From: an uncultured Pseudomonadales bacterium
Lineage (GTDB): Bacteria > Patescibacteriota > Microgenomatia > UBA1400 > MFAQ01
Assembly: GCA_964439805.1 (NCBI GenBank)
Contig: CAYTOI010000003.1
Span: forward strand, 36,844-100,843
DNA: 64,000 bases
Reading direction: 5' to 3'
Below, one piece after another: positions 32,883 to 48,831 of this stretch. The notes beneath the pieces are model-generated. The model was not told where the DNA came from, did no database searches, and saw only the letters and a list, made by a program, of their open reading frames with translations. How positions within the stretch are numbered: position 1 is the stretch's first letter; each line of letters starts with the position of its first letter. The translations under genes were made by a program, and so were the position numbers.

Positions 32883-33653
32883 TTCATGATTGTATCTAAT
32901 TTCTAGAAATTTTAAAAAAGATAAAATTGGATAAAAACTTCTGACTATAGCAATAATTAACCCATGGACACCATCCAAATAACCTCTTTTGACTATCAAC
33001 CTTCCAAAAAACTGTTTATTGACTTCAAATATTAGTTCAAAAATAAGAGGCAACATGCCTTTACCTTTTGAATACTTTTTGTAAATCTCCTTCGCTTCCA
33101 ATTCAGTGTATGTATTATAACCGGATATTGTGTCTGAAATTTTATTATGGGAATAATGAAGTATTTCTCCTTTCTTTATTTCACCCAAACATTTTTTATC
33201 GATATTAATCTTTTCATGTACTGTGCCATTAAATTTACAAAATTTTCTGTTATACAATCTATGTCTTGGATACCTACAATAACCAGATCCTCTTACAAGT
33301 TTTCCATACATGTAGTCAGTCTCATACATAACATAAGCATTTACAGATTTATTTAAAAAATTAATACTTAATAACGACACAGAGAGTTCTTCATTAATCA
33401 CTTCATCAGCATCTATATTCAATATCCAATCATTTGAAGCTTTTTTTGCAGCAAAATTTTTCTGGTCAGTATAACCTTTCCACTTATTTTCATAAAAAAT
33501 TACATTCTTATATTTAGAACATATTTTTTTTGTTGAATCACTACTAAAACTGTCTACAACAATGACTTCATCAACAAACTTAAGAGAGTTCAGACAACGA
33601 GCTATGTTTTTCTCTTCATTAAAAGTTATAACTGTCGCCGATAAATTCCTCAT
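32865..33653 (-). CDS. GT2 glycosyltransferase
   Basis: ATVITFNEEKNI...VVDSFSSD...DADE motifs. Confidence 0.8.
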   Translation of the reverse strand: MRNLSATVITFNEEKNIARCLNSLKFVDEVIVVDSFSSDSTKKICSKYKNVIFYENKWKGYTDQKNFAAKKASNDWILNIDADEVINEELSVSLLSINFLNKSVNAYVMYETDYMYGKLVRGSGYCRYPRHRLYNRKFCKFNGTVHEKINIDKKCLGEIKKGEILHYSHNKISDTISGYNTYTELEAKEIYKKYSKGKGMLPLIFELIFEVNKQFFGRLIVKRGYLDGVHGLIIAIVRSFYPILSFLKFLEIRYNHESLIED

Positions 33654-34870
33654 CTTTTTATATATTTAGTAATAATAAATCCGAGAACGATTATTTCACT
33701 CAGCAGTACCGACACAGACGACACCACAAATCCATATCTTGGCATTACCAGTAGGTTAATAAGTAGACTACAAACTAGTCCCACAGAGACCGCATAAAAA
33801 ACTTGTTTCTGTTTGTGTCGAGCAAAGAGCAGATTACTAGCAAAGATTCGGAAATAGTTAACCACCCCAGCCCAAACCAATATGGCCATGGCGGGCGCAG
33901 CCGATAGATAGACCGAGCCATATATGGCTTTTACAATTTGGCTTTGAAAAATTGTAATAAACGCAGCCAAAGGCAAAAGTCCTATTACCGAGTAGGTAAT
34001 CACCATTCTAATGAGCTTTCTAAGAGTTTCTTGCTTCTTCTCTTGAATCAGTACATTGATACGAGGGAAAATAGCATTGTTGATGACATTGATACTCTGA
34101 AAGGCAAAAAGAATTTTGTAAGCAGCCTGGTAAAATCCCACTTCCCTACTCCCAAAGAACTTACCTATTAGTAGTGTGTCTGCGTTCGCATAAATTGTCC
34201 CCACTACCGCAAGCCCCATAAATGGCACTGTTTCTCGTAGTATTTTCTCCCAAAACTCTTTTTCAAAAAGTACTTTTATTTTTACCTTCATTCCCCTAGC
34301 AAGCAAGATAGAAACAATTAGCGAAACAATAGTCGTAACAGCATAAGCAAGCACCACCTGCATCGCGCTCCCTTTAAGAGCAATAACTCCCAAAGCCGAA
34401 ACAAGAATTCCTAAGTAATAAGTAATTCTGGCTACAAACACATACTGCATTTTTTCCCAAGCCGAAAAGATGGCGACAAACACTCCAGAAAGATTCTGAC
34501 TAAGATTGTAAAGCAACACCGCCAAGATCATAGATCTTGTAGTATTTGTCGGTACAAAAATAAAACTCAAGAGAATAAGTAAAGTAATAAGAAGAGACAG
34601 ACTAATCTTTAACCCCAACAAGTTCCCCAAATATTTTTCTGTTTCTTTTTTGTTTTTTGCTACATCTCTAGTGGACACAGTGTTTAAGCCAAAGTCACCA
34701 GCAATCATAAACAACGCTACGTAAGAAAAAGCCAAGTTAAAAGCTCCAAAATCTTTTGGACCTAAGCATCTTACTAGCCCTATAGTGACACCAAACATTA
34801 CCACCTTAGAAATGAGTTCAGTGATGCCAAGCCAGAAGGCACTTTGTACTAGAATAATGCGGTTTGACAT
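33650..34870 (-). CDS. polysaccharide flippase (Wzx/PST family, MOP superfamily)
   Basis: 12 TM segments; N-terminal LGITELISKVVMFGVTIGLVRCLGPKDFGAFN pattern typical of Wzx. Confidence 0.7.
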   Translation of the reverse strand: MSNRIILVQSAFWLGITELISKVVMFGVTIGLVRCLGPKDFGAFNLAFSYVALFMIAGDFGLNTVSTRDVAKNKKETEKYLGNLLGLKISLSLLITLLILLSFIFVPTNTTRSMILAVLLYNLSQNLSGVFVAIFSAWEKMQYVFVARITYYLGILVSALGVIALKGSAMQVVLAYAVTTIVSLIVSILLARGMKVKIKVLFEKEFWEKILRETVPFMGLAVVGTIYANADTLLIGKFFGSREVGFYQAAYKILFAFQSINVINNAIFPRINVLIQEKKQETLRKLIRMVITYSVIGLLPLAAFITIFQSQIVKAIYGSVYLSAAPAMAILVWAGVVNYFRIFASNLLFARHKQKQVFYAVSVGLVCSLLINLLVMPRYGFVVSSVSVLLSEIIVLGFIITKYIKR

Positions 34871-34891
34871 GGTACGATACTACCACATAAT

Positions 34892-36385
34892 ATGAAAAAT
34901 AATAATATGAAAAATATATTGAATTCATCGCTAAATTTTGTTAGAAATCTCACAAAATCTAAGGAGTTTATGACTCTAAACAAAACAGGCCTATATGCTT
35001 CCATATTAGCTTTTATCACCATCGTTGTTATGGGCATTGCTCTCCGCTACTTCGGACCATTTGGCAGAAACTCCATTTACGAATTCAAACCCACTCTTCC
35101 AAACACCGAAAGTTTTCTCTCACTAAACAAAACAGGTGACAAACTAGAACTTGGCGGACTCCTTCTCAAAAACAAAGTTACTCGATTCTCCCTAGATAAT
35201 CAAAAATATTTAAAAGACATCAAAGTTGCCCTCAACTACAAACCAGGTCAAAAGGAAATAAAAATTGGAGTCAGAGCAAACGAAACGGATCCTTTCATCT
35301 ACAAGTCTCTCTTCTTTGACCCTATCAATAGTCTTTCCTGGGCCAAGATTCAGTCAAATGGTATGACTTTGTTCCAAAAGACCAAACAATTCGACTCCAT
35401 CCCTGCATTCCTCAGTCAGCTAACTCCAGACAAAAAGGTCGGACTCTACCAAATAAATGTTAACGACCTCATTCCTTTCATATACCCTAATCTCAAACAA
35501 ACCAATACTGTCATCACTGCCCCTATCCGCGGCAATGCCACTATGTACGTCTTAGTTTCCAAAGGCGACTTAAACATCAAAGTCAGCAAACAAGACTTAA
35601 ACATGACCGACGGAGCCGACTCCCTCAGCCTTTCCTTGTCTCTTAATAATATAAAGGTTACCGAAGCCAATATCCCAGACGATGGCTTTGCCGACAGAAG
35701 CAAAAGCAAAACAGCTGCTCAGACAACCAGTCTCTCTGTACCAAAAGCCAAACCAGGTGTCTACAAGCTAGATATTAAGTTCGACAGTGCTGGCAACGAC
35801 GGCCTAATATCTAAGATTGAGGTCAACCAAGCCAAAGTAGTCTTTGGCGGCTCTGTACTAATCTGGAACGGTGCCCCAACCGCTTTCTACACCTTTGACC
35901 CAAAAATTGTTACTTCTACCTCTTGGGCTGATGCTATCCAAAACCTCAAAGTCGACGACAAAGCTGATCTAGCTATTAAAGACATCAAAAACAAATTCAA
36001 CTTTGATCTGGCCAAAACTATGAAGGGTAAACCAGCTGAAGAAATCTACAAAGTTTTCTCACCAAAAGGTAATATCAACTTCGGTACTGGTAGTTACTTC
36101 TCCTTCAACCCAGACACCTACTTCGATCCAAAAATAATTAAGGCTCAAGTGCTAAACACCAATAGTGTTCAAGCAGATATCGAAAAAAACCTAGACTTTA
36201 TCCTTACCACTCTAAACCCCAACAAGGAACAAGACTACTGGCTAATGTCCGAACTAAACTTTAACCCTGCAGACTTTCAGCTCAAGGGTGACAAAATCTT
36301 CTTCTCTCTAGAAGTACCAGATTTGGACAAGCAAGGCGGATCTCTAGAGCTAGGTGGACTTACAGTAACCCTTATTTCCAAATAA
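34892..36385 (+). CDS. hypothetical membrane-anchored extracytoplasmic protein (497 aa)
   Basis: N-terminal TM helix followed by a large beta-rich domain. Alternative start at the ATG at 34970 with an AAGGAG RBS. Confidence 0.4.
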   Translation: MKNNNMKNILNSSLNFVRNLTKSKEFMTLNKTGLYASILAFITIVVMGIALRYFGPFGRNSIYEFKPTLPNTESFLSLNKTGDKLELGGLLLKNKVTRFSLDNQKYLKDIKVALNYKPGQKEIKIGVRANETDPFIYKSLFFDPINSLSWAKIQSNGMTLFQKTKQFDSIPAFLSQLTPDKKVGLYQINVNDLIPFIYPNLKQTNTVITAPIRGNATMYVLVSKGDLNIKVSKQDLNMTDGADSLSLSLSLNNIKVTEANIPDDGFADRSKSKTAAQTTSLSVPKAKPGVYKLDIKFDSAGNDGLISKIEVNQAKVVFGGSVLIWNGAPTAFYTFDPKIVTSTSWADAIQNLKVDDKADLAIKDIKNKFNFDLAKTMKGKPAEEIYKVFSPKGNINFGTGSYFSFNPDTYFDPKIIKAQVLNTNSVQADIEKNLDFILTTLNPNKEQDYWLMSELNFNPADFQLKGDKIFFSLEVPDLDKQGGSLELGGLTVTLISK

Positions 36386-36389
36386 GCCT

Positions 36390-37154
36390 ATGCGCCGAAT
36401 ACTGGCGGATCTCTTCTCCATCTCACTAGTCTTTTATTTGCTGATGTTTTTGCTGGAAAATATTTTCCCCAAAATCATCAGCAATGTCTTTAATCTTAAC
36501 TACTTACTAATTCCCGTCATGATCTTTGGCGTTCTCTCAGCGCTGCTTCCTCTACCAGAAAGTGAACAACCAAAAGACGAGTACAAAAGATCAGACCTCT
36601 GGTGGTCCTTACTTCTTTCTATTTTGGGCGGCGCACTTATCTACTACAAAATCGACTTACAACCTACTCTCCGCATTAGCATCTCTCTCCTCTCTACTCT
36701 CCTTATTGGCCTTATGTCTGTCCTCATAATTTTGCCCGAAGACTACGAAATCTCCGTGCCAAAAATTAAGTGGTGGATATCACTAATCCTTATTCCTGTT
36801 TTAATTTTTGGCTACTCAAAAATAAATTTCACTTCACAACCAACAGTAATTGAAGAAACCATCATCAGAAAGTCACCTGATCTTTACCAAATAATTCTTA
36901 TCAATAGAAGTGAGGACAAAGACTTTGGCGAAACCTATCGCCAGCTAATAGTAAACAATGACTACAAAAACATCACCACAGTTAGCACAGATACCTACCC
37001 CCAGACCACTTCTCAAGCCACTGTTATCTTTAGCCCGGAAGACGCTAGTGCCGGCCAAGAAATCGCCGATCTACTGCACCAATCCATCCCAAATGTACAG
37101 ACCATGCCACCTAGCAAAAACATTCCTCAACAAATAATTATTATCCTAAAGTGA
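36390..37154 (+). CDS. hypothetical membrane protein
   Basis: 5-6 TM segments. Confidence 0.4.
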   Translation: MRRILADLFSISLVFYLLMFLLENIFPKIISNVFNLNYLLIPVMIFGVLSALLPLPESEQPKDEYKRSDLWWSLLLSILGGALIYYKIDLQPTLRISISLLSTLLIGLMSVLIILPEDYEISVPKIKWWISLILIPVLIFGYSKINFTSQPTVIEETIIRKSPDLYQIILINRSEDKDFGETYRQLIVNNDYKNITTVSTDTYPQTTSQATVIFSPEDASAGQEIADLLHQSIPNVQTMPPSKNIPQQIIIILK

Positions 37155-38458
37155 TTTACCTTATCTTTGCTTTTTATCTTCTTGCTCGTCTTTACCCTTA
37201 TTTTTTCTCACCCGTTCCCCTAGGCTACGACGCCGGACTATACATTTATCTATGGCAAAAATATAGTGAGCTAGGCTTGGTTCAGTTTACTAGCCTCCCC
37301 AAGTGGCTAGTAGAAGTCTATCCTCCCTTTATCGCTATTGTCGGCAAGCTATTCGGTCTACTCGCCTCCCCTGCTACTTTTGCTATTCCCCTATCAATAA
37401 TTATTTCTTCTGTACTATTCCATGCAGTTTATTTATTTGTCGCCAAAAGGTACGACAAAAACACCACCCTCTGGATAATGTTTTTCTTGGCTGCATCCAT
37501 TGTCCAATACAAATTTTTCTGGTGGTTTTATATCAAAAATATTCTTGCTCTCGCCTTTGTTTTTTATTATCTGAACTTCAAAAACCAGAAGCCCTACCTC
37601 AGCTACCTATTTGTAGTTCTCACAATCCTTACTCACCAGCCCACCTCAATAATTTTATTTTTGGCGATTATCTTTAGTAACAGTTTTTCCTCTCTAATCC
37701 CCTTCTTTGCTACCTTCACCCTTTACTACATACCAAACTTCAGTCTTACAGTTGCCCCGTTCCTCCCAGGAGTTTCTTCTACAATTGGTGAAGCTTCTGG
37801 AACTTTTTGGAATATCCGAGAATCTCTTTTCTACATGCTCCACTATCTCCCTTTTTCTCTCTACGGACTATACGTAAATAGAAAAGCCAAAAATAAATTA
37901 GTTCCACAACTAGCCCTAGTCTCTTTTCTTATTCCCCTTTTTGGATTATTTTTATCTCGTCGCTTCATCCCTTTCTTTGATATTTTTGCTCTAATACTGG
38001 CAGGCCTAGGTGCTAGCAAATTTTTCAAAGATTTTCCCAAATTAAAATACTTTTATATCCACCTAGTTATTATTTCTATAAGTTTATTCGTGTTCCAATA
38101 CTCCGCTGCAGCCATAAATATAGATGAATTTGAGGAAATTAAGTTGCTGACTACCACCCCATCTTCTGCCTCCATTTTGGTTACTGATAATGAGTACACA
38201 CCTTGGATATATGGCTACACAAACCGTCGTTCTATTACTCCAGGGTTTGGTGAATTTGATATTTACTGGACAACCTATGAGTGGCAACAATACTGGCTCT
38301 CCGGCAATCAAACTTTAGAGATTTCTCTTCTCCAAAAACTTCCTCAACCTCTCTATATTTGGAAAGGCGACAAAAATGCCCTCACAAAGTTTTCTTTGCA
38401 AGGGCCTTGTTTTGAACGCTTCTCTTGGCACACTTATCGCTTTGTGTGCCAGCAATAA
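37151..38458 (+). CDS. polytopic membrane protein (possible second GT-C-like or polymerase component)
   Basis: 435 aa, at least 10 TM segments plus a C-terminal soluble domain; ATGA overlap with the upstream gene. Confidence 0.4.
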   Translation: MIYLIFAFYLLARLYPYFFSPVPLGYDAGLYIYLWQKYSELGLVQFTSLPKWLVEVYPPFIAIVGKLFGLLASPATFAIPLSIIISSVLFHAVYLFVAKRYDKNTTLWIMFFLAASIVQYKFFWWFYIKNILALAFVFYYLNFKNQKPYLSYLFVVLTILTHQPTSIILFLAIIFSNSFSSLIPFFATFTLYYIPNFSLTVAPFLPGVSSTIGEASGTFWNIRESLFYMLHYLPFSLYGLYVNRKAKNKLVPQLALVSFLIPLFGLFLSRRFIPFFDIFALILAGLGASKFFKDFPKLKYFYIHLVIISISLFVFQYSAAAINIDEFEEIKLLTTTPSSASILVTDNEYTPWIYGYTNRRSITPGFGEFDIYWTTYEWQQYWLSGNQTLEISLLQKLPQPLYIWKGDKNALTKFSLQGPCFERFSWHTYRFVCQQ

Positions 38459-40666: not shown

Positions 40667-41143
40667 CTAAACCGCAACCAAAACTGGAACTCTTTTCCTC
40701 ATTCCTGTAATTACATCGGCCAGAACATCTAATAATTCAATCATTAAATTGAGCGTATAACTCGAATTGTAAAACTTTCGAGCCAAATCCTTAGAATCAA
40801 AGACAAGTTTTAAAACCAGCAATATTCCAGTTACAAAATTAGGAACATATTCTTGTTTTGGATCCACATGCTCAACGCTAAAGGCAATGCTAAGATCAGG
40901 AATTTCTAGCATTTCATAAATAATCTGCAAGTGGTCAGATACAGAAACTGAATCGTACTTGTCATTTTTCAAATATCGAATCAAAAGATCTGGACAATAC
41001 TTATCAGTTTTAATGAAATAATTAGCAAGTGCCAACCCAAAGAGCATGCCATCTAGCATTTCTCCTTTATCTATGGCGCGACACTCCATGTACCTTTGGA
41101 CCAAACTTAATAGGCCGTTATCAAACTCTTCCATACTACTCAC
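40667..41143 (-). CDS. hypothetical protein (158 aa), tandem paralog family member
   Basis: ORF with a strong terminator at 40618-40660; weak similarity to 41136..41624. Confidence 0.4.
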   Translation of the reverse strand: MSSMEEFDNGLLSLVQRYMECRAIDKGEMLDGMLFGLALANYFIKTDKYCPDLLIRYLKNDKYDSVSVSDHLQIIYEMLEIPDLSIAFSVEHVDPKQEYVPNFVTGILLVLKLVFDSKDLARKFYNSSYTLNLMIELLDVLADVITGMRKRVPVLVAV

Positions 41144-41624
41144 CTCTTGAAATCGAAGTATCTTTAACTTCCATCAACGTAAACTTCAGACCATTTAGTA
41201 ACGCATTAAATGACGAAACGTATACTCCAATAAATAAATCACTTCTCCCCTTGGCGGGATAAAATTCAATAATGCTCAAAAAAGCTTTCATTGTAATCTC
41301 ATAACCCATTCTCATAGCATTGACATAATCCGTTCGAAAATCTACCTCAAACAACCTTCCGGATGTAGTAAACATTTCATCCCGAACGACAATGTCTTTA
41401 GTAGTCTTGAGAATTTGAAAATGCCTCTGAAGTGAAAACTTAACATTACTTACATCAAGTAGGTATTTGTCAAGCTCACGAGAAAAACCGTTTTCATTTC
41501 TTGCAGACAAAAGAGCAATTTTAAAACCAAGCTCCAGCCCCTCGAGAAATTGACTTTTCATATCATCTGGGCACTTACCAAATTCTTTGATCAAAAAAAC
41601 TACAGGATCATTATCTTCCATCAC
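41136..41624 (-). CDS. hypothetical protein (162 aa), tandem paralog family member
   Basis: ORF; overlaps its neighbour by 8 nt. Confidence 0.4.
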   Translation of the reverse strand: MMEDNDPVVFLIKEFGKCPDDMKSQFLEGLELGFKIALLSARNENGFSRELDKYLLDVSNVKFSLQRHFQILKTTKDIVVRDEMFTTSGRLFEVDFRTDYVNAMRMGYEITMKAFLSIIEFYPAKGRSDLFIGVYVSSFNALLNGLKFTLMEVKDTSISRGE

Positions 41625-41657
41625 ACACTCCTTGTAAAGGTTTAGTTATAGGGTATT

Positions 41658-42137
41658 TTACCACGATTGGTAAATCTTTTCCAAAAATGCCATTTCTCCA
41701 TATATCCAAGCCACGTAGCGGTTGTATAGATTCACCTCACTTTCAGCCTCAATAATGTTCCTAGCGAGAGACTCACAAGGAATTAAGAGGTTCTTAATGG
41801 CAAGTGCGTAATACTTACCAGGGTGTCCGTAGCGCAAGCCTGAGTTTGGGATCTTTGACTCATCCAAAACAATCTTACCGTCCGAAAGACTTTCAATTTC
41901 TTTGACAAAATCAGGAGTAGGCCAAAACGGACTAGTTTGGTTTTGCAAAAAGATCCATAAGTAGCTATCTTCACTTATAAATGGTCTTCCCTGTTCTTCG
42001 TAAACTAAAGCAAAATACAAACAAAAATAGGCACCAGCTATATAGGCGTCACGACATTTGGGTAAATTTTTCAGTTCAAACACTTTCTCCAAAACATGAA
42101 TCTTCAGCATTGCGTTCAAATTATCAGAATTAAACAT
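41658..42137 (-). CDS. hypothetical protein (159 aa)
   Basis: ORF of similar size in the same array. Confidence 0.4.
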   Translation of the reverse strand: MFNSDNLNAMLKIHVLEKVFELKNLPKCRDAYIAGAYFCLYFALVYEEQGRPFISEDSYLWIFLQNQTSPFWPTPDFVKEIESLSDGKIVLDESKIPNSGLRYGHPGKYYALAIKNLLIPCESLARNIIEAESEVNLYNRYVAWIYGEMAFLEKIYQSW

Positions 42138-42207: not shown

Positions 42208-42648
42208 CTATTCCTTCTGTCTATCTGTTTCCCCGTGAGATCCTCTCGCAAGCCGAGCCATCATCTGTTGCAAAAAAGACTCCTTCTTCTGCTTTTCGAC
42301 CTGCTTCTTTTGATCGGATTGCTGCTTTTCCTCCATCTTCTCTCTGTTTACTTGAGCATCAACTTGTTTTTTGTGTTCAATATATTCTTGTAGGCGGGAC
42401 TTTACTTCATTAAACTGTCTTTTTTCTGACTGCTTCTTCATAGCCTGCTTTTGCTCAGTAGCAGGATCTTTTTGTTGCTTCTTCTCACCCAAGTCAGACT
42501 GGATAAGACCGGCCGGAGCGCTAAGGATCTGTTCTATAGAATCAGTGGCAATATCTGTAGCAGCTTTTGCCGTACCTTTTACAACACCTTTACCCAGTTC
42601 AAATAAGTCGCCAACAACTTGCTGGCCAATTCCTCCCAAAGCAGACAT
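42208..42648 (-). CDS. hypothetical charged coiled-coil protein (K/Q/E-rich)
   Basis: Low-complexity EKKQQ-rich C-terminus; Gly-rich N-terminus. Confidence 0.35.
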   Translation of the reverse strand: MSALGGIGQQVVGDLFELGKGVVKGTAKAATDIATDSIEQILSAPAGLIQSDLGEKKQQKDPATEQKQAMKKQSEKRQFNEVKSRLQEYIEHKKQVDAQVNREKMEEKQQSDQKKQVEKQKKESFLQQMMARLARGSHGETDRQKE

Positions 42649-42701: not shown

Positions 42702-43052
42702 TCACTCAACAAAGAGATAGTCACTCAAACCGTCTGGCCCACCAAGCTTACCCCATTGGGGTTGAACCTTGAGCACTTCCATCAATTCATCTGCCCTGTC
42801 TTCCAAGAAGACCCTTTCTTCTTCAACAAAGTCACCTTTTGTAAAGACAATTAAGTCGCCTTCCATAACGACACCACGATCAGTAGAAAAGCAAATCTTC
42901 ACTGCTTCCTCAAAACATTTTTCCTCAATGGTTTGGTTTACAACGGATATTCTTATGACAAACCCATCACTTCCTTCTCGACGACCTTGCCCTTCAAAAC
43001 GCATAACAAATAATCCACCCCTATCTATTTCTTCATACCATGCTGGCAACAT
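42702..43052 (-). CDS. hypothetical protein (116 aa)
   Basis: ORF only. Confidence 0.3.
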   Translation of the reverse strand: MLPAWYEEIDRGGLFVMRFEGQGRREGSDGFVIRISVVNQTIEEKCFEEAVKICFSTDRGVVMEGDLIVFTKGDFVEEERVFLEDRADELMEVLKVQPQWGKLGGPDGLSDYLFVE

Positions 43053-43167
43053 AAAAGCCTCCTTAAAAAGTTAATATTACAGGCTTATTATAATCCTATA
43101 CTTCCCAAATTTCAAGCTCTAGGATATAATCCACACACGCACATTTTAAACCTAAGAAGGAGGCATT

Positions 43168-44367
43168 TTGAACCAATACAACCACTTATATCTTGGCGTT
43201 AACTATGCAGTACTCGCCCCAGGAAGACAGATAAAAACCAAAACTGAAAATCACATTCTTTTTACCGATGGCTCGCAAGTAGATCTCGACACGGGACAAG
43301 TAATTGATCTTGCCGAACAAGATGAAAAATTTTTGGTGGTAATTCCACTCTCACAAGGATTAAATCACTTCAACCTTGGTGACCTGAACACTGCACCAAA
43401 AGCAATGGCATGGACCAGTTCAAAACTAAAAATTAACTATCCAGGTCCAGTCAACATTATCCCCAGCTTAAACGAAATATTGACAGTCCACGAAAATAAA
43501 TACTGTACAGCCGTAAAACTAGGCACCGAAGAAGTTATTGTTACAGCCGTTGCCATGGACGAGGTTAGCTATTTCCACGATCAAAAGAACGGCACCAACA
43601 CTCCAAACTTCGACTACAAAACCAAGAACTTCCCCGCCATAAACATCTGGGCACCAGTGAACACAACTGTTACTGGCGAAGCTACAGCTTTAAACTTTTC
43701 CAAGTTAAAGCACATTGATATGAAAGTAAACATTGTAAACGGCCAGCTGGCCACCGAAGACATCTTTGTCGACGGAGAAGGACATCTATCTCTAAGTTTA
43801 GTTTCAACGCCACTAATTGGCGTAAATCAAATAGGTGATGTTAATATCGTCACAAGCGGCCAAGTAGATAAAATTGATGTAATTGGTACGGGAGATGTTC
43901 GCGTCATCTGCAAGGATGCTGGCAATATCAGCGTCGATGCGGGTGGCGAAGCATATGTCTCGGCCAGTAATGTTGACGGTCTATATATTGCAGCAGCAGA
44001 AGACGTTACTGTCAATATAGCTAACAACACTGATTTTATTGTAGTAAAGTCTGACGGCAGCATAAACATAAACGGCGGAAAATACAAAGAAATCACAAGT
44101 CTAGAAGCAGAGTTCGATATTTCCTTAGACGTTGAATCCTTTGAAATAGCTGTGGTTAAATGTGGTGGCAATTTGAATGTCAAAGCCAATATCGGCACTC
44201 AAAGCATCGCTGCTTCAAGCAAGAAAATCGCCAAGTTGACACTTGCCACTGCCAATGTTGTAGATGTCAGGGCTGAAGAAATCTCCATAATGGCCTACGA
44301 ATACCTCAAAGACCCTATTGTTCCTGCCAACAACCCCAACAACTTCATCTCCTATCGTGGTGCGTAA
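43168..44367 (+). CDS. beta-solenoid repeat protein (DUF4097/adhesin-like), paralog 1
   Basis: RBS AAGGAGG; N-terminal domain shared with 44853 (LKINYPG motif); C-terminal periodic beta repeats (VDVIGTGDVRVI... / VNIKANIGTQSIAAS...). Confidence 0.5.
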   Translation: MNQYNHLYLGVNYAVLAPGRQIKTKTENHILFTDGSQVDLDTGQVIDLAEQDEKFLVVIPLSQGLNHFNLGDLNTAPKAMAWTSSKLKINYPGPVNIIPSLNEILTVHENKYCTAVKLGTEEVIVTAVAMDEVSYFHDQKNGTNTPNFDYKTKNFPAINIWAPVNTTVTGEATALNFSKLKHIDMKVNIVNGQLATEDIFVDGEGHLSLSLVSTPLIGVNQIGDVNIVTSGQVDKIDVIGTGDVRVICKDAGNISVDAGGEAYVSASNVDGLYIAAAEDVTVNIANNTDFIVVKSDGSININGGKYKEITSLEAEFDISLDVESFEIAVVKCGGNLNVKANIGTQSIAASSKKIAKLTLATANVVDVRAEEISIMAYEYLKDPIVPANNPNNFISYRGA

Positions 44368-44374
44368 CCCAAAA

Positions 44375-44412
44375 GACCCGGCTGACTATGTCACCCGGGT
44401 CTTATTTTTTTA
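44375..44412 (+). terminator. rho-independent terminator
   Basis: gacccgg...ccgggtc followed by TTATTTTTTT. Confidence 0.6.
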
Positions 44413-44416
44413 AACA

Positions 44417-44704
44417 CTAACCAAAATTTATACTTATGACGTTTGCCCCAAAAACACTTTCTAGATGTCTAGAAAGCTCCAGCATGATTTTTACATCAAT
44501 TGAGTTAACACTAATTGAAAGAATCATTTTCCCACCAGTTACCTTAGGCGCTTCAAAACTTGCTACGAATTGGGTTATTGATCCAGTTTCCAATGAAAAA
44601 GAGTTTGCATCAATAAATTTTGTTTCCAGATCCCCAAAAACCTTCTTCTCCTCCAAATACTGCTCAATTGCCTTAATTATTGTCAAAATACCAATTTGTA
44701 TCAT
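44417..44704 (-). CDS. hypothetical small protein (95 aa)
   Basis: ORF between the two beta-solenoid paralogs, on the opposite strand. Confidence 0.3.
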   Translation of the reverse strand: MIQIGILTIIKAIEQYLEEKKVFGDLETKFIDANSFSLETGSITQFVASFEAPKVTGGKMILSISVNSIDVKIMLELSRHLESVFGANVISINFG

Positions 44705-44852
44705 TTTGCCTCCAGTAGGTTAAAAGATGGTCTAATATACCATATTACAGGCCAATTCGCAACACTAAATAATTAAATACAGGCACAAAAACACCAATCT
44801 TCAAGCTTATAGGGTATAATATGCCAAGCACGTTAAACCAACTACAAAAGAG

Positions 44853-46265
44853 GTGAATATGGAAATTTATTACAACGGCTTGATACTTTTTGGAAACTAC
44901 CTACTTGTAACAAACGGCAGGTCAGTAAGAAACTCTAACAACGGAATCTATACCTTTTCAGACGGATCTATTGTTAACCTAAAATTAGGAATCATAGTTA
45001 CAAATAACAAGAATGAAAATCAAAAAGATTTTACTATCATCACCCTTGTTCCAGGAACTCAAATAATCGAGATTGGCAATAAGAACAGAGACCCCCAAAG
45101 CAAACTATGGCTCTCGGATTCGTTAAAAATTAATTATCCGGGAAAGGTTGTAATTACAGAATCAACCGATGGCACGATCTCAGTAAAAGAAAATGAGTTT
45201 TGTGTTGCAAATGAAAGTAATGGGTTAGTATCAGTTTCGTTAGTTGACTACACAAAACTCGTCGTCAATACCGAAACTTCTTCAATCAACGAAGTTTATT
45301 TGGGAAAACTACCAACTCTCGAAATTTCAGCCCCAGCAAACGTACAAATTACAAACAATTCTGGAAGTTTAACTTTTGATACGGCCAAGAGTGTAGAGCT
45401 GTTAGGTGGAGATCTCACTGGAAACAATGTTGACTCGATAACTGGATCAGCAGATAGCAGCGTTGAAATAAAAATCAATTCTGTAAATACGCTGACATTT
45501 AAAACATCTAGCTTTTTAGCAATCAGCCTAGACATCGCAAACACCGTATCAGTTGAGGCAGAATCAGCCTTAAAAATTAATGTTTCAGGCGAAATTAAAG
45601 CTCTCAACATCAATGGAGAAAGTTCTGTAGAAATCAAAGGTGGAACTTTTGAAAAAATAACGGTTCAGGAATGCATTGGTTCATTTAATTTGGCAGACTT
45701 TACACACGTAGGCAAATTAGTTGTTTCTTCTGAATCGTTTGTAAATATTACTGGGCAATCGGTTGATATTGTTGACATAAAAAAATCAGACAGTAAAACT
45801 GCAATTAAAGTCAAAAAAAGCAAAGATATTACCGTTTATTCAGACTCAGCAGTTACCATTGAAGGCGAAGATTTGGATATCATTAATCTTCTCTACGCTG
45901 ATGGAGCTGTAAACATAAAAACTACGACTTCAAAGAAAATAACTGTTAAGAGTGATAGCAGCGTCAATATCACCGGTTCAAAAGTGGATGTTGTCGATGT
46001 AACTTATGCTGATGGCCGAGTTGAAATTGATGCTGATACAATCAACAACATTCGCGTTGTCTCAGACTCCGCTGTTTCAGTGAATACAAACAGCGGTGAA
46101 CAGACTGTTAGTATTGAAGCGGACAGTCGAGTAAATCTCCAACTGGCTAAGGTTAAAAGTCTAAAGGTAATTTCCGACTCTGCGGTCAGCGTATCTGCTT
46201 ACCATTACTACACAAACCCAGATATAACCGCAGATGGAAGAATAACTGTAACCGATCGTAAATAA
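44853..46265 (+). CDS. beta-solenoid repeat protein (DUF4097/adhesin-like), paralog 2
   Basis: Shares its N-terminal domain with 43168. Long C-terminal array of roughly 20-aa repeats (xSDSAVxIxG...). Confidence 0.5.
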   Translation: MNMEIYYNGLILFGNYLLVTNGRSVRNSNNGIYTFSDGSIVNLKLGIIVTNNKNENQKDFTIITLVPGTQIIEIGNKNRDPQSKLWLSDSLKINYPGKVVITESTDGTISVKENEFCVANESNGLVSVSLVDYTKLVVNTETSSINEVYLGKLPTLEISAPANVQITNNSGSLTFDTAKSVELLGGDLTGNNVDSITGSADSSVEIKINSVNTLTFKTSSFLAISLDIANTVSVEAESALKINVSGEIKALNINGESSVEIKGGTFEKITVQECIGSFNLADFTHVGKLVVSSESFVNITGQSVDIVDIKKSDSKTAIKVKKSKDITVYSDSAVTIEGEDLDIINLLYADGAVNIKTTTSKKITVKSDSSVNITGSKVDVVDVTYADGRVEIDADTINNIRVVSDSAVSVNTNSGEQTVSIEADSRVNLQLAKVKSLKVISDSAVSVSAYHYYTNPDITADGRITVTDRK

Positions 46266-46274
46266 TTCAAACAA

Positions 46275-46300
46275 AACCCGCCGAAAGGTGGGTTTTTTTA
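46275..46300. terminator. bidirectional terminator
   Basis: aacccgcc-gaaa-ggtgggtt followed by TTTTTTT; between convergent genes. Confidence 0.5.
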
Positions 46301-46906
46301 CATCCCTCGCCTGCCCTCAAAAGCTCTCAGAAGTGTCTGTCCATCAGCAAACTCTATGTCTGCTCCAGTCGGCAAACCTCTACCTATTCGGGTAACACTC
46401 ATACTACCAGCAAGACCCATGTCCTTAATTCTTTCTGCAATATACATAGCTGTCGCCTCCCCTTCCATATTTGGATTTGTAGCTAAAATAAGCTCTTCTA
46501 TCCCCCGTGTTTTAATTCTCGCTAGTAGCTGTGGAATTCTCAAATCATTAGGACCTATACCCGCCATAGGATTTATAATTCCACCCAAAACATGGTAAAC
46601 GCCTTTGTATCCCTCGGCTTTTTCAAAAGCCAAAAGGTCCAGTGCATTCTCCACTACACAAACTTGTTTTTTGCTTCTATTTGCGTCTTGGCAAACCGGG
46701 CAAAATTGTTCCTCACCCACATTAAAACAAAGTTCGCAAAACTTTGTATCTTTCTTTAATCGAGATAGTGATTCCCCAAATTTATCCAGCCTTTCTTGTG
46801 GCATATTCAACATGTAATAAGCCAAGCGGGCTGCCGACTTTGGCCCAATCCCTGGCAAGGCCTCAAAACCATCAATAACTTTCTGAACCGGACGAATACT
46901 TCTCAT
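46298..46906 (-). CDS. recR: recombination protein RecR
   Basis: C4 zinc finger (CELCFNVGEEQFCPVC), Toprim domain; 202 aa. Confidence 0.9.
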   Translation of the reverse strand: MRSIRPVQKVIDGFEALPGIGPKSAARLAYYMLNMPQERLDKFGESLSRLKKDTKFCELCFNVGEEQFCPVCQDANRSKKQVCVVENALDLLAFEKAEGYKGVYHVLGGIINPMAGIGPNDLRIPQLLARIKTRGIEELILATNPNMEGEATAMYIAERIKDMGLAGSMSVTRIGRGLPTGADIEFADGQTLLRAFEGRRGM

Positions 46907-46909
46907 GTC

Positions 46910-47230
46910 CTACATTCCTTGTGGCAAATTTCCAAGAACTTTGGATAAGTCGCCCATAGAATCTTTCATTTCCTCAGCTGCATATTTTTGAGCTTTGGTA
47001 ATTGCTTCATTAATTACTTTTACTGCTTTGTTCATGTTTTCACCATCGATAAAAAGCTCTTTTAGTTTTCCATCTCCGGTAACTGATGCCTTTACTCCAT
47101 TTTCCTCAACTTCAGTTTTGTGACCAGCAATCTTTCGCTGTAGCAAAGCGAGTTTTGTAAGAGCTGCACCTTGTGATCCAAATTTTTTTATTCCGTCAAA
47201 CATATATTTTTGTATTTTTCTAACCTTCAC
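46910..47230 (-). CDS. ybaB: nucleoid-associated protein YbaB/EbfC
   Basis: 106 aa; conserved dnaX-ybaB-recR order. Confidence 0.7.
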   Translation of the reverse strand: MKVRKIQKYMFDGIKKFGSQGAALTKLALLQRKIAGHKTEVEENGVKASVTGDGKLKELFIDGENMNKAVKVINEAITKAQKYAAEEMKDSMGDLSKVLGNLPQGM

Positions 47231-47245
47231 ATTTTACCTCATTTT

Positions 47246-47316
47246 GAGTTTTTGCGTTTTTGCACTTTGAGTTTTATTTTCTTGAGTTCTTGATTTCTAG
47301 AGTTCTCGAGTTCTTA
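47246..47316. repeat. repeat family A, longest copy (about 9 degenerate octamer units), intergenic between dnaX and ybaB
   Basis: gagtttttgcgtttttgcactttgagttttattttcttgagttcttgatttctagagttctcgagttctt. Confidence 0.75.
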
Positions 47317-48831
47317 ACTAAATATCTTCTCCACATCCACCGCCACAGTATTCACATTCGCATCCTCCGAATTCGGCTCTGTCCTCGCCGGCATGTCTAT
47401 CAAAACCGTTTTCAATGTCACCGGTCCCCAAATTCTTTGCATTTCTTGTTCAATTATTTTTTTCTTTGTATCCCTCTCAATCATGTCTTGCTGAAAACGC
47501 GACTTTACTGACAAGGTCAAAGACTTTCCTTGCAAATCCATAGGTGCCGAGTTTCTTAGCATTCCAGCAAGAGACCCATTACTTGCTGCAAAATTATCCA
47601 AAAATCCTCCCCATTCTTCTTTTATTTTTTCTATCGATGCTTTCATATCAGCTACGCTCTCTAGAGAAACTACTTTATCAACTTCTTTTTTTTCTTCTAT
47701 CACTACTGGAATTTCCTCTACAGGTGCAGGACGAACTACAGTTTCAACCTTCCTTTCAATTGCTGGTGCTTTAGCCGGCTCTACTTCTTTCGGCACCCCA
47801 CCACCACTATTATTGATAGAACTAGACAAAATTGCCATCTCCAAAGGCAGTAACGGATCTGGAGATATTTTTATTTTCTCTGCCGAGCTGACTAGCCCAT
47901 CAACCAAAGCAATTAAACTGCGAACATTTGCCCCACTTTTTACCGATATTTCAATTTGAGATTTTAGATACGTAAGCATCGCTACCAAAACCACTTGAGC
48001 CTTTACCCCATTACTTTCCATAATCATAAAGCTCTCCACAACCTCAGAAGATTTTCCAGACAATGCCGCCTCAATCACTTTTTTGACCAAGACATTACTT
48101 ACCGATCCCAGGTTCTTATTTACCAAATCCCTGTCGATATCCACCCCAAAGCTAGCCAGCTGTTCCAGCACCTTGTGGGCTTCCCGGAAACTCCCGTCCG
48201 CCACCTCTGTAATGGCCTCCAAGGCCTCCATATCGGCTTTCAGCTTCTCTCCTGCAACTACACGCATCAGAGACTCTACCATCTCGGATTTGGTCGCTTT
48301 GGTGAAGTTTATCTTTGAGCACCTGCTGACTATAGTCTCAGGCACCTTGTGAGCCTCTGTTGTACAGAGAATAAACATGGCGTGCTTAGGAGGTTCTTCT
48401 AGGGTTTTAAGAAGTGCATTAAACCCAGCAGTAGACACCATGTGAACTTCATCGATAATATAAATTTTCTTTCTAAGCTGTAGCGGAGAAAGGCGAACTT
48501 TGTCTCTCAAATCTCTAATGTCTTCCACTAGTCCATTACTTGCCGCATCAATTTCTATTACATCTACACCACTTCCATGAATCAGAGATTTGCATGGTTC
48601 ACAAACCCCACATGGTTCATGCAACTCACTCACCAAATCTTTATTAAGATCACAATTGACAACTTGCGAAAGGATTCTCGCCGTACTAGTTTTCCCAGAT
48701 CCGCGAGGACCCACAAACAGATACGCATGAGACACTTTTCCACTTTTCAAAGCAGCCTCCAAAGCACCACGAACCGACAACAAATTCAGCTCTGCAATTT
48801 TTTGGGGTCGATACTTTTGGTAATAACTCAC
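47314..48831 (-). CDS. dnaX: DNA polymerase III subunit gamma/tau
   Basis: Walker A GPRGSGKTSTARIL; zinc module CGVCEPC; clamp-loader boxes. Confidence 0.9.
   Translation of the reverse strand: MSYYQKYRPQKIAELNLLSVRGALEAALKSGKVSHAYLFVGPRGSGKTSTARILSQVVNCDLNKDLVSELHEPCGVCEPCKSLIHGSGVDVIEIDAASNGLVEDIRDLRDKVRLSPLQLRKKIYIIDEVHMVSTAGFNALLKTLEEPPKHAMFILCTTEAHKVPETIVSRCSKINFTKATKSEMVESLMRVVAGEKLKADMEALEAITEVADGSFREAHKVLEQLASFGVDIDRDLVNKNLGSVSNVLVKKVIEAALSGKSSEVVESFMIMESNGVKAQVVLVAMLTYLKSQIEISVKSGANVRSLIALVDGLVSSAEKIKISPDPLLPLEMAILSSSINNSGGGVPKEVEPAKAPAIERKVETVVRPAPVEEIPVVIEEKKEVDKVVSLESVADMKASIEKIKEEWGGFLDNFAASNGSLAGMLRNSAPMDLQGKSLTLSVKSRFQQDMIERDTKKKIIEQEMQRIWGPVTLKTVLIDMPARTEPNSEDANVNTVAVDVEKIFS

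What the first reader, a model, noticed from the sequence alone, without database searches (positions are those of the whole stretch)
43168..46265. Two paralogous beta-solenoid repeat proteins sharing an N-terminal domain, separated by a small antisense gene
The 399-aa and 470-aa proteins share an N-terminal module (…S(S/D)(K/S)LKINYPG(P/K)V(N/V)I…, ENKYC/ENEFC) and carry C-terminal arrays of roughly 20-residue beta-strand repeats (VxVxSDSAVxIxG…). These resemble DUF4097/LiaG-like or bactofilin-like beta-helices. No signal peptide is obvious. Each has its own extended -10 promoter and RBS. A 95-aa gene lies between them on the opposite strand. In a small-genome, possibly episymbiotic organism, paralogous beta-helix proteins are candidates for cell-surface attachment structures or polymer-forming cytoskeletal elements. 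The repeat-number difference between the paralogs suggests ongoing repeat expansion.
Basis: partly seen in the sequence, partly recalled or inferred. Interest (0 to 1): 0.55.

Follow-up and report, generated by a model that had tools for sequence, protein, structure and literature searches.

The report
Hypervariable Toastrack beta-helix gene pair
Two neighbouring genes in a Collierbacteria-like (CPR) genome encode rod-shaped beta-helix proteins of the known but poorly understood "Toastrack" (DUF4097/DUF2807) kind. The gene keeps a fixed chromosomal slot and a conserved promoter, yet related genomes carry radically different versions of it, and this genome carries both main versions side by side.

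Summary
The ORFs at 43168-44367 (P1, 399 aa) and 44859-46265 (P2, 468 aa from the likely ATG) are homologous (E=1e-20), and a real 95-aa orphan gene lies antisense between them. An AlphaFold model of P2 (pLDDT 93.9) is all-beta, with about 16 rungs of about 18.4 residues and a 37-residue super-repeat. Its best PDB matches are the DUF2807/DUF4097 "putative adhesin" structures that define the Toastrack fold. P1 and P2 miss every Pfam model, but two full-length homologs pass the DUF2807 and DUF4097 thresholds. There is no signal peptide, TM segment or anchor, and no bactofilin or enzyme signal.

The family is tiny: about 12 clusters among 1.84 billion representative proteins. It always sits between p146/p116 and recR-ybaB-dnaX. 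A family-specific promoter element, TATAGGnTATAAT, is conserved in 11 of 12 upstream regions examined. Genomes whose housekeeping proteins are 88-99% identical carry versions only 26-29% identical. Two contigs share 95%-identical flanks up to the -10 box and from the stop codon onward, around unrelated ORFs.

P1 and P2 are therefore two ancient types, not a recent duplication. Best reading: leaderless Toastrack docking rods encoded by a hypervariable cassette locus. Function and location remain inferred.

The parts
42208..42648 (-). p146: conserved left-flank neighbour. Gly-rich amphipathic N-terminus, charged helical middle, invariant C-terminal SHGETDRQKE. Function unknown.
   Evidence: 47-59% identical in L001, L008, L013, L016 and L017. 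No significant or informative Pfam or PDB match.
42702..43052 (-). p116: neighbour transcribed divergently from P1. It belongs to the variable island. Conserved C-terminal W-G-x-x-G-G-P-D motif. Function unknown.
   Evidence: Family present in L001, L009, L010, L011, L013 and L017. 27-33% identity to the window copy. Only 34% between L017 and L013, but 77% between L017 and L001.
43113..43146 (+). Family-specific promoter element of P1: CAAGCTCTAGGATATAAT (-10 TATAAT at 43125-43130), followed by conserved CACATTT (43140-43146).
   Evidence: Read directly. TAGGnTATAAT occurs only twice in the window. A perfect or near-perfect TATAGGnTATAAT lies 45-56 nt upstream of the family gene in 11 of 12 upstream regions.
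43157..43163 (+). RBS AAGGAGG of P1, 4 nt before the TTG start.
   Evidence: The TTG start agrees with homolog N-termini beginning MNQ.
43168..44367 (+). P1: 399-aa short-type family member. N-module is aa 1-182 (43168-43713). About 12 beta-helix rungs follow (43714-44364).
   Evidence: Full-length homology to P0007 (27% over 382 aa, E=8e-45), which passes Pfam DUF2807. Codon score 0.24. P1 itself was not modelled.
44375..44411 (+). Intrinsic terminator after P1: GACCCGG-C-TGAC/TAT/GTCA-C-CCGGGTC, then a T-run. It lies between the convergent P1 and p95.
   Evidence: Read directly. The scan tool did not flag it because its long interrupted stem falls outside the tool's stem and loop rules.
44417..44704 (-). 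p95: orphan 95-aa gene between the two copies, with a GGAGG RBS and a TG-extended -10-like promoter at 44762-44734.
   Evidence: Coding-like codon score 0.22, against -0.01 for the antisense ORF. No homolog in any related locus. Cluster of one. No Pfam, PADLOC or PHROG hit.
44802..44820 (+). Family-specific promoter element of P2: CAAGCTTATAGGGTATAAT (-10 TATAAT at 44815-44820).
44850..44855 (+). RBS GAGGTG of P2. It contains the GTG at 44853 that the mechanical ORF call used as the start.
   Evidence: Long-type homologs start with ME.
44859..46265 (+). P2: 468-aa long-type family member. N-module is aa 1-178 (44859-45392). About 16 beta-helix rungs follow (45393-46262), with a 37-aa super-repeat.
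   Evidence: AF2 pLDDT 93.9, pTM 0.80. Foldseek PDB top hits 3pet, 3lyc, 4qrk, 3jx8, 4ygu, 3ljy, 4opw. Lag-37 autocorrelation. dN/dS 0.17-0.20.
46274..46299 (+). Terminator after P2: AAACCCGCC-GAAA-GGTGGGTTT plus a T-run, shared with the convergent recR. It marks the right boundary of the cassette.
   Evidence: Read directly. DNA homology to L010 and L006 resumes here.
46298..46906 (-). recR: conserved right flank, followed by ybaB (46910-47230) and dnaX (47314-48831).
   Evidence: Pfam labels from related loci. RecR 75-97% and YbaB 82-97% identical across loci.

Best explanation
P1 and P2 are two anciently diverged members (a short and a long type) of a very small family known so far only from Collierbacteria-like CPR genomes. 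The proteins are leaderless, acidic and all-beta.

Shown:
- Each protein has a conserved N-module of about 180 residues. That module consists of a family-specific beta region of about 80 residues followed by what is probably the Toastrack N-terminal cap.
- A Toastrack-type (DUF4097/DUF2807 superfamily) beta-helix follows, with about 12 rungs in P1 and about 16 in P2, each of about 18.4 residues. The last four rungs or so are conserved and the middle varies in length.
- The gene sits in a fixed slot between p146/p116 and recR. It is bounded by a conserved family-specific promoter and a terminator.
- Related genomes carry ORFs of radically different sequence and type in that slot. This genome carries both types in tandem.

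Inferred:
- The proteins are not enzymes. They are rigid rods whose two flat beta-sheet faces dock other proteins, as proposed for Toastrack domains.
- Lacking any export signal, they act inside the cell by default.
- The swapping of alleles implies that whatever they bind evolves fast. Candidates are the co-varying small neighbour proteins or a phage- or host-derived factor.
For: Fold:
- AF2 model of P2 has pLDDT 93.9, with 17 strand elements from residue 171 onward, spaced about 18.4 residues apart.
- All top Foldseek PDB hits except one are DUF2807/DUF4097 structures, including 4QRK and 4OPW. Those two are the reference Toastrack structures named in PMC11237479.

Family link:
- P0007 scores 34.6 bits on DUF2807 (cut-off 24.2). 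P0011 scores 23.9 bits on Toastrack DUF4097 (cut-off 22.9).
- Both are full-length homologs of P1 (E=8e-45 and 4e-32). P0007 is also a clear homolog of P2 (E=2e-36).

Cytoplasmic by default:
- No TM segment or signal peptide. The N-terminus is conserved and modelled as strands.
- The Toastrack paper argues the domain is intracellular and serves as a docking platform.

Functional gene:
- dN/dS is 0.17-0.20, against 0.03-0.06 for neighbouring genes. Codon usage is coding-like.

Fixed slot:
- Eight independent loci with both flanks carry a single copy between the small minus-strand genes and recR.

Hypervariability:
- L017 versus L013: RecR 98%, YbaB 98%, YbeY 99%, DnaX 90% and CysS 88% identical, but the family protein is 29% identical over 171 aa. 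DNA homology breaks across the island.
- L006 versus L010: flanks are 95% identical up to the -10 box and from the stop codon onward, around unrelated ORFs of 468 and 415 aa.
- Window versus L010: recR DNA is 88% identical, the family protein about 27%.

Other:
- Promoter conservation.
- Ancient types: the long-type clade has 200/200 bootstrap support and P1 lies outside it.
Against: - P1 and P2 themselves match no Pfam or NCBIfam model and no PDB sequence.
- P1 was not modelled. Strand topology and handedness of the P2 model could not be inspected.
- Foldseek E-values are modest (1e-4 to 1e-2), with TM-scores of 0.24-0.59.
- No PspA, PspC, LiaF or SHOCT partner lies nearby, so the published Toastrack context is absent.
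- Toastrack-fold proteins also occur outside the cell. LiaG's DUF4097 is described as extracellular.
- In my own knowledge, cassette-like allele replacement is more typical of exposed or conflict-related proteins than of housekeeping scaffolds.
- No binding partner has been shown.
- Loci were found by searching for the gene itself, so genomes with an empty slot would have been missed.
Confidence: 0.5

Rival explanations
1. Exported surface rods or adhesins. The proteins leave the cell by a signal-peptide-independent route and form strain-specific attachment or receptor structures on an episymbiont's surface. Phage or host pressure drives the allele diversity.
For: - Hypervariable cassette with conserved ends and a variable, length-polymorphic middle.
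- Acidic and cysteine-poor.
- The nearest solved structures are labelled 'putative adhesin'.
- LiaG's DUF4097 is described as extracellular.
- Many assemblies break at this gene (contig lengths), which fits population-level polymorphism.
Against: - None of 13 family members has a signal peptide, lipobox, TM segment, LPXTG or other anchor.
- The N-terminus is a conserved, confidently folded beta region.
- No transporter gene is adjacent.
- The 'adhesin' labels are structural-genomics names, not tested functions.
Confidence: 0.25
2. Phage-defence or conflict module. The Toastrack rod is a sensor or decoy that binds a phage protein. It works with the variable small ORFs (p116, the p101-like genes, p95) in a defence-island-like hotspot between p146 and recR.
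For: - The variable island holds the family gene plus unrelated small ORFs that differ between loci.
- An IS200-type transposase lies inside the island in L013.
- Ancient alleles are exchanged between relatives.
Against: - No PADLOC or PHROG hit for any component.
- No recognisable effector domain.
- The gene was present in every locus examined, not patchy, although the sampling was biased toward its presence.
- The constitutive-looking conserved promoter says nothing either way.
Confidence: 0.12
3. Self-polymerising cytoskeletal filament, bactofilin-like. The conserved N-cap and the last rungs stack head to tail to build filaments.
For: - Leaderless beta-helix with rungs of about 18 residues.
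- Conservation is concentrated at the two ends.
Against: - No member matched a bactofilin family in the Pfam scan.
- No bactofilin structure among the 50 listed Foldseek hits.
- Cytoskeletal proteins are normally conserved (my own knowledge), not swapped for 26-29%-identical versions among relatives.
Confidence: 0.08
4. Beta-helix enzyme, such as a pectate-lyase-like glycan hydrolase or lyase.
For: One structural neighbour (3lyc) is titled 'putative pectinase'. The ExNxxC motif is invariant.
Against: - No enzyme family hit in Pfam or NCBIfam.
- 3lyc belongs to the same structural-genomics group of uncharacterised 'putative adhesin' structures returned, and its title is untested.
- The variable region has no conserved cleft residues.
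Confidence: 0.03

Closest known systems
Toastrack domain proteins (Pfam DUF4097 PF13349, DUF2807 PF10988, DUF2154; for example B. subtilis YvlB and LiaG; structures 4QRK, 4OPW, 3PET)
   Same: - Beta-helix with two extended sheets and rungs of about 18 residues.
- The best structural matches are exactly these entries.
- Two full-length homologs pass the Pfam thresholds.
- No catalytic signature.
- The domain itself has no TM segment or signal, as described in PMC11237479.
   Different: - P1 and P2 fall below detection by the Pfam models.
- They have roughly 12 and 16 rungs. The matched solved chains are only 166-247 residues long in total.
- An extra conserved N-terminal region of about 80 residues is present.
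- There is no fusion to, or neighbourhood with, PspC, LiaI-LiaF-TM, PspA, SHOCT-like or HAAS/PadR components.
- The gene behaves as a hypervariable cassette. I found no report of this for Toastrack genes in the papers searched.
Bactofilins (DUF583)
   Same: Leaderless cytoplasmic beta-helix with a similar rung length (my own knowledge of the family).
   Different: - No sequence or fold match here.
- Bactofilins are short (about 6 rungs), conserved, and have disordered tails (my own knowledge).
Allelic-cassette loci for exposed proteins (for example the Clostridioides difficile S-layer slpA cassette, flagellin central-domain replacement, capsule or O-antigen loci). Comparison from my own knowledge, not tested here.
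   Same: - Fixed chromosomal slot with conserved flanks.
- Deeply divergent alleles exchanged among relatives.
- Conserved protein termini with a variable middle.
   Different: Those products carry export signals or are glycan-synthesis enzymes. P1 and P2 have no export signal. The cassette here is a single small ORF bounded by its own promoter and terminator.
Trimeric autotransporter adhesin head 'GIN' domain (the origin of the DUF2807 description)
   Same: Name and beta-helical repeat character only.
   Different: No signal peptide, no stalk and no membrane anchor or translocator domain.

Membership tests
Toastrack (DUF4097/DUF2807/DUF2154) | Direct match of the protein to PF13349, PF10988 or PF09922 at the gathering threshold | tested here: not met
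   P1 and P2 have no hit to these models at E<=1.
Toastrack (DUF4097/DUF2807/DUF2154) | Homology to proteins that do pass those models (transitive membership) | tested here: met
   P0007 scores 34.6 bits on DUF2807 (GA 24.2, residues 239-334). P0011 scores 23.9 bits on DUF4097 (GA 22.9, residues 240-360). P1 aligns to both over nearly full length (E=8e-45 and 4e-32). P2 aligns to P0007 at E=2e-36. All sit in one family alignment.
Toastrack (DUF4097/DUF2807/DUF2154) | Single-stranded beta-helix forming two extended sheets | tested here: met
   AF2 pLDDT 93.9, regular strand-turn period of about 18.4. Top Foldseek hits 3pet, 3lyc, 4qrk, 3jx8, 4ygu, 3ljy and 4opw with probability 0.8-1.0. P1 was not modelled.
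Toastrack (DUF4097/DUF2807/DUF2154) | N-terminal seven-stranded intertwined cap region (PMC11237479) | tested here: inconclusive
   The 178-aa N-module alone (pLDDT 88) again hits 3pet, 3jx8, 4opw and 4qrk over about 100 columns, but only at E=6.5e-3 to 4e-2. The aligned residues are not reported.
Toastrack (DUF4097/DUF2807/DUF2154) | Usual context: fusion to or neighbourhood with PspC, LiaI-LiaF-TM, PspA, SHOCT-like or HAAS-PadR (typical, not strictly defining) | tested here: not met
   The neighbouring genes scanned (34.9-39.2 kb and 40.7-43.1 kb) have no such Pfam domains. A Band_7 gene lies 4 kb away, beyond cysS.
Bactofilin (DUF583) | Pfam bactofilin match or a bactofilin structural neighbour | tested here: not met
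   No bactofilin family among the Pfam matches of the 13 members at E<=1. None among the 50 listed Foldseek PDB hits.
Bactofilin (DUF583) | Nucleotide-independent polymerisation into filaments | not testable with these tools
   Needs purified protein or multimer modelling.
Secreted or surface adhesin (autotransporter, sortase- or lipid-anchored) | N-terminal signal peptide or lipobox | tested here: not met
   Maximum 19-residue hydropathy is about 1.1. N-termini are MNQYNHLYLG and MEIYYNGLIL, modelled as beta strands.
Secreted or surface adhesin (autotransporter, sortase- or lipid-anchored) | Membrane or cell-wall anchor (translocator barrel, LPXTG, C-terminal TM) | tested here: not met
   C-termini are ...PANNPNNFISYRGA and ...ADGRITVTDRK. 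There is no hydrophobic tail or sorting motif, and no such Pfam domains.
Known anti-phage defence systems (PADLOC-DB 2.0) | Match of any component to a defence-system model | tested here: not met
   P1, P2, p95 and p116 have no hits. p146 has only a noise hit at E=0.08.

The most novel reading that the evidence does not exclude
This is a previously undescribed single-gene cassette locus in Collierbacteria-like CPR bacteria. A conserved family-specific promoter and a terminator frame a hypervariable leaderless Toastrack rod. At least two ancient allele classes (short and long) are kept by balancing selection and moved between lineages by recombination in the conserved flanks. The rod acts as a strain-specific recognition determinant, either as an intracellular sensor or decoy for phage proteins, or as an unconventionally exported host- or phage-contact structure. 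The window's genome carries both classes in tandem and so has double specificity.
Probability: 0.3. Interest if true: 0.7.

Novelty: new variant of a known kind. Interest (0 to 1): 0.45.

Why it matters
Toastrack/DUF4097 domains are widespread, yet almost nothing is known about what they bind. LiaG has no phenotype, and YvlB is known only from two-hybrid interactions (PMC9239133).

This locus offers a natural experiment. The scaffold ends, promoter and chromosomal slot stay fixed while the rungs in between, and their number, are swapped between relatives. That points to the sheet faces as the specificity-bearing surface. It also gives a defined set of alleles for testing partners.

For CPR biology, the locus flags a candidate strain-level specificity determinant in organisms thought to depend on hosts. 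Conflict and recognition genes in these organisms are mostly unannotated.

If the proteins prove to be ordinary cytoplasmic scaffolds with relaxed constraint, the result is a modest extension of a known superfamily.

Tried and rejected
- Bactofilin or DUF583: no bactofilin family among the Pfam matches and no such structure among the listed fold hits.
- Enzyme: no family hit in Pfam or NCBIfam.
- Recent tandem duplication or ongoing repeat expansion: rejected. There are no DNA repeats. P1 and P2 are only 30% identical. The long-type clade has 200/200 support and excludes P1.
- Phase variation by simple repeats: none found.
- Diversity-generating retroelement: no reverse-transcriptase hit among the neighbouring ORFs scanned.
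- Phage origin: no PHROG hit. The viral structure library gave only generic 'adhesin' beta-helices. Both flanks are housekeeping genes.
- Known defence system: no PADLOC hit.
- Type IV pilin-like N-terminus: rejected. There is no long hydrophobic segment, and the region is modelled as beta strands.
- A T1SS-like C-terminal export signal (acidic, leaderless, repeat-rich) was considered but cannot be tested here. No ABC or MFP gene was seen among the neighbours examined.
- Gene-wide positive selection: not seen (omega 0.17-0.20).
- p95 as a conserved partner: rejected. It has no homolog anywhere.
- p146 and p116 profiles against PDB and Pfam: nothing significant or informative.
- Searches that led nowhere: PDB sequence searches with the family profile, P0007 and P0011. 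The genome-contig scan found only the known Collierbacteria contig. The metagenome scans gave errors, nothing, or the same organism.


Full report
**1. Observation**

- BLASTP of P1 against P2 gives 30% identity over the first 183 residues (E=1e-20) and 27% over 264 C-terminal residues (E=2e-7).
- P2's real start is almost certainly ATG 44859, giving 468 aa. GTG 44853 lies inside the Shine-Dalgarno sequence GAGGTG, and the long-type homologs begin with ME.
- P1 has AAGGAGG 4 nt before its TTG, and its N-terminus (MNQ...) matches those of short-type homologs.
- Each gene ends in a clean hairpin plus T-run (44375-44411 and 46274-46299). They are separate transcription units.
- The 95-aa ORF has a GGAGG RBS and a coding-like codon-usage score of 0.22 (true-frame mean 0.27, sd 0.12). 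Its antisense ORF scores -0.01.
- Neither P1 nor P2 has a hydrophobic segment (maximum 19-residue Kyte-Doolittle value about 1.1). Both are acidic, with net charges of -18 and -15.
- The window contains no further paralog.

**2. Repeats**

P2 shows a strong 37-residue periodicity. BLOSUM autocorrelation is 0.58 at lag 37, against a maximum of -0.08 in 200 shuffles. Laid out at 37, eight rows fall in register.

P1's periodicity is weak. Across the family, the leading lags are 18/19, 37 and 55/56, which are one, two and three times about 18.5. There is no DNA-level tandem repeat in either gene. The repeats are old and diverged.

**3. Fold**

AlphaFold2 on a four-sequence alignment gave a confident all-beta model of P2, with pLDDT 93.9 and pTM 0.80. 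From residue 171 onward there are 17 strand elements separated by three-residue turns, spaced about 18.4 residues apart.

Foldseek against the PDB returned, at the top, 3pet, 3lyc, 4qrk, 3jx8, 4ygu, 3ljy and 4opw. E-values ran from 1e-4 to 1e-2, probabilities from 0.8 to 1.0, and target-normalised TM-scores reached 0.59.

These are the structural-genomics 'putative adhesin' structures. 4QRK and 4OPW are the examples Ravi et al. (mSystems 2024, PMC11237479) cite when defining the Toastrack domain. [quoted passage not shown]

**4. Sequence membership**

- P1 and P2 hit nothing in Pfam or NCBIfam, and the family profile hits no PDB sequence.
- An exhaustive HMM search of 1.84 billion representative proteins found only about 12 family clusters (E<1e-25), of 355-468 aa.
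- Scanning those members individually, P0007 passes DUF2807 (34.6 bits, cut-off 24.2). P0011 passes 'Toastrack DUF4097' (23.9 bits, cut-off 22.9).
- Both are full-length homologs of P1. P0007 is also a clear homolog of P2.
- Membership in the superfamily is therefore transitive, backed by the fold, and not direct.
- No member matched a bactofilin family in the Pfam scan.

**5. The N-terminal module**

The first 178-182 residues are the best conserved part. Invariant positions are G44, L63, G66, G73, N76, P79, Y93, G95, E111, N112, C115, P152, I156, A158 and F173.

Modelled alone with 13 sequences (pLDDT 88.1), this module again matches 3pet, 3jx8, 4opw and 4qrk over about 100 columns, though weakly (E=6.5e-3 to 4e-2). 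I therefore read roughly its second half as the Toastrack's own N-terminal cap. Only the first 80 residues or so, a stack of short strands, look like a family-specific addition. This point is inconclusive.

**6. Genomic position**

The one named homolog is from Candidatus Collierbacteria RIFOXYD1_FULL_40_9.

The window's uniformly negative GC skew matches the strand asymmetry published for Collierbacteria and relatives (PMC7143001).

In every related locus retrieved, the family gene lies at the same place. It is downstream of small minus-strand genes (the p146 family, usually the p116 family, and sometimes a p101-like acidic protein). It is convergent with recR-ybaB-dnaX.

Eight independent loci with both flanks carry one copy. 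Only the window's organism (the window and L005) carries two.

**7. Hypervariability**

This is the main new result.

- Against the window, RecR is 75-97% identical, YbaB 82-97%, Band_7 88%, CysS 63-65% and DnaX 66%. The family protein is only 20-48% identical, apart from one 75% relative.
- L017 and L013 have RecR 98%, YbaB 98%, YbeY 99%, p148 93%, PIG-L 92%, DnaX 90% and CysS 88% identical. Their family proteins are a 376-aa short type and a 468-aa long type, 29% identical over 171 aa. DNA homology stops after p148 and resumes at recR.
- L017 and L001 share p148, p115 and p101 at 60-77%. DNA homology runs to 16 nt before the family gene's start and then ends.
- L006 (long, 468 aa) and L010 (short, 415 aa) share 95%-identical DNA for 65 nt up to and including the -10 box. 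They share another 60 nt from just after the stop codon through the terminator. The roughly 1.4 kb between is unrelated.
- L010 also shares 88% DNA identity with the window across recR, and 78% upstream of P1.

dN/dS within the long type is 0.17-0.20, against 0.03-0.06 for neighbours. The gene is functional and evolves faster than its neighbours. At that rate, in-place divergence cannot produce 26-29% identity between genomes this similar. Allele replacement is the simpler account.

A neighbour-joining tree of the N-module gives the long-type clade (P2, P0001, P0003, P0005, P0006) 200/200 bootstrap support. P1 falls among the heterogeneous short forms. P1 and P2 are thus two old types co-resident in one genome.

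**8. Conserved regulation**

TATAGG(A/G)TATAAT, usually followed by CACATTT, lies 45-56 nt upstream of the start codon in 11 of the 12 upstream regions examined, whatever the type. TAGGnTATAAT occurs only twice in the 64-kb window, upstream of P1 and of P2.

**9. Conservation along the protein**

The N-module and the last 68 residues or so are conserved and always present. Residues 179-250 are the most variable. Residues 251-400 are present in only 60-70% of members. Length differences of 355 to 468 aa come from whole-rung indels in the middle.

**10. Mechanism**

Shown:
- A leaderless Toastrack-type rod of about 12 rungs (P1, by length and alignment) or about 16 (P2, from the model).
- Conserved caps and a variable middle.
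- A fixed slot and a conserved promoter.
- Exchange of divergent alleles between relatives.

Inferred:
- A non-enzymatic docking scaffold, following the proposal for Toastrack in PMC11237479.
- Cytoplasmic location, by default.
- Binding faces that track a fast-evolving partner.

The usual PSP partners are absent nearby. The conserved neighbours p146 and p116 and the orphan p95 gave no significant or informative match in Pfam, PDB, PADLOC or PHROGs.

The main rival is export to the surface by an unrecognised route. The cassette pattern would suit that reading, but there is no signal, anchor or transporter to support it. Defence-sensor, filament and enzyme readings rank lower.

**11. Verdict**

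The bactofilin, repeat-expansion and surface-structure ideas are not supported.

These proteins are a new, very rare and divergent variant of a known fold class. An unexpected population-genetic behaviour makes them moderately interesting.

Limits:
- Only loci containing the gene were sampled.
- P1 was not modelled.
- No localisation or partner data exist.

Noticed in passing
window 42208-42648 (-): p146 is a conserved unknown protein. It has a Gly-rich amphipathic N-terminus (LGGIGQQV..LFELGK), a long K/E/Q-rich helical middle and an invariant C-terminal SHGETDRQKE. It is always the left boundary of the variable island. No significant or informative Pfam or PDB match.
   Followed up: partly
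window 42702-43052 (-): The p116 family (conserved W-G-x-x-G-G-P-D near the C-terminus) is itself mosaic. It is 77% identical between L017 and L001 but only 34% between L017 and L013, although L017 and L013 are closer genome-wide. It appears to recombine along with the Toastrack cassette.
   Followed up: partly
window 44417-44704 (-); antisense ORF 44436-44723 (+): The orphan 95-aa gene has no homolog in any related locus and sits in a 90% cluster of one. A same-length ORF on the opposite strand scores as non-coding.
   Followed up: yes
L001 9585-9890, L013 4909-5241, L017 5918-6223, L010 134-400 (all -): A second small, very acidic protein family (88-110 aa, with a VVVMITTDG-like motif) sits directly upstream of the family gene in several loci. 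It is absent from the window.
   Followed up: partly
L013 3992-4297 (-): An IS200-type Y1 transposase (PF01797) is inserted between p148 and p111, inside the variable region.
   Followed up: no
L017 8122-8643 and L008 7499-7918 (-): Unrelated ORFs of 173 and 139 aa are inserted between recR and ybaB in these loci. In the window, recR and ybaB are adjacent. This suggests a second small variable spot.
   Followed up: no
whole window: GC skew is negative in every 2-kb bin (cumulative -6.3), and most genes are on the minus strand. This matches the one-directional strand asymmetry reported for Collierbacteria, Beckwithbacteria and Ch65 (PMC7143001). The skew is weakest (-0.06) at 44-46 kb, where P1 and P2 lie on the plus strand.
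   Followed up: partly
window 30001-34000: A low-GC island (0.28-0.29 against about 0.39) sits next to multi-TM proteins at 33650-38458, which by eye look like a polysaccharide-export or glycosyltransferase-type cluster. It may be horizontally acquired surface-glycan genes. Pfam found nothing for 34892-38455.
   Followed up: no
window 40667-42137 (-): Three consecutive unknown proteins of about 160 aa lie between cysS and p146. Only the 159-aa one has a detectable counterpart in the Collierbacteria contig (37% to the L001 168-aa protein).
   Followed up: partly
contigs L003, L004, L006, L009-L012, L020; ends of L001 and L005: Many independent assemblies break at or right next to this gene. Contigs are 1-3 kb, L001's 31-kb contig ends 174 bp after the gene, and L005 ends 171 nt into P2. 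This would fit within-sample allele polymorphism.
   Followed up: no
P2 versus L006 gene: Synonymous divergence is very uneven along the gene. dS is about 4 (saturated) in the N-module and 0.5 in the rungs. This hints at intragenic recombination between alleles.
   Followed up: no
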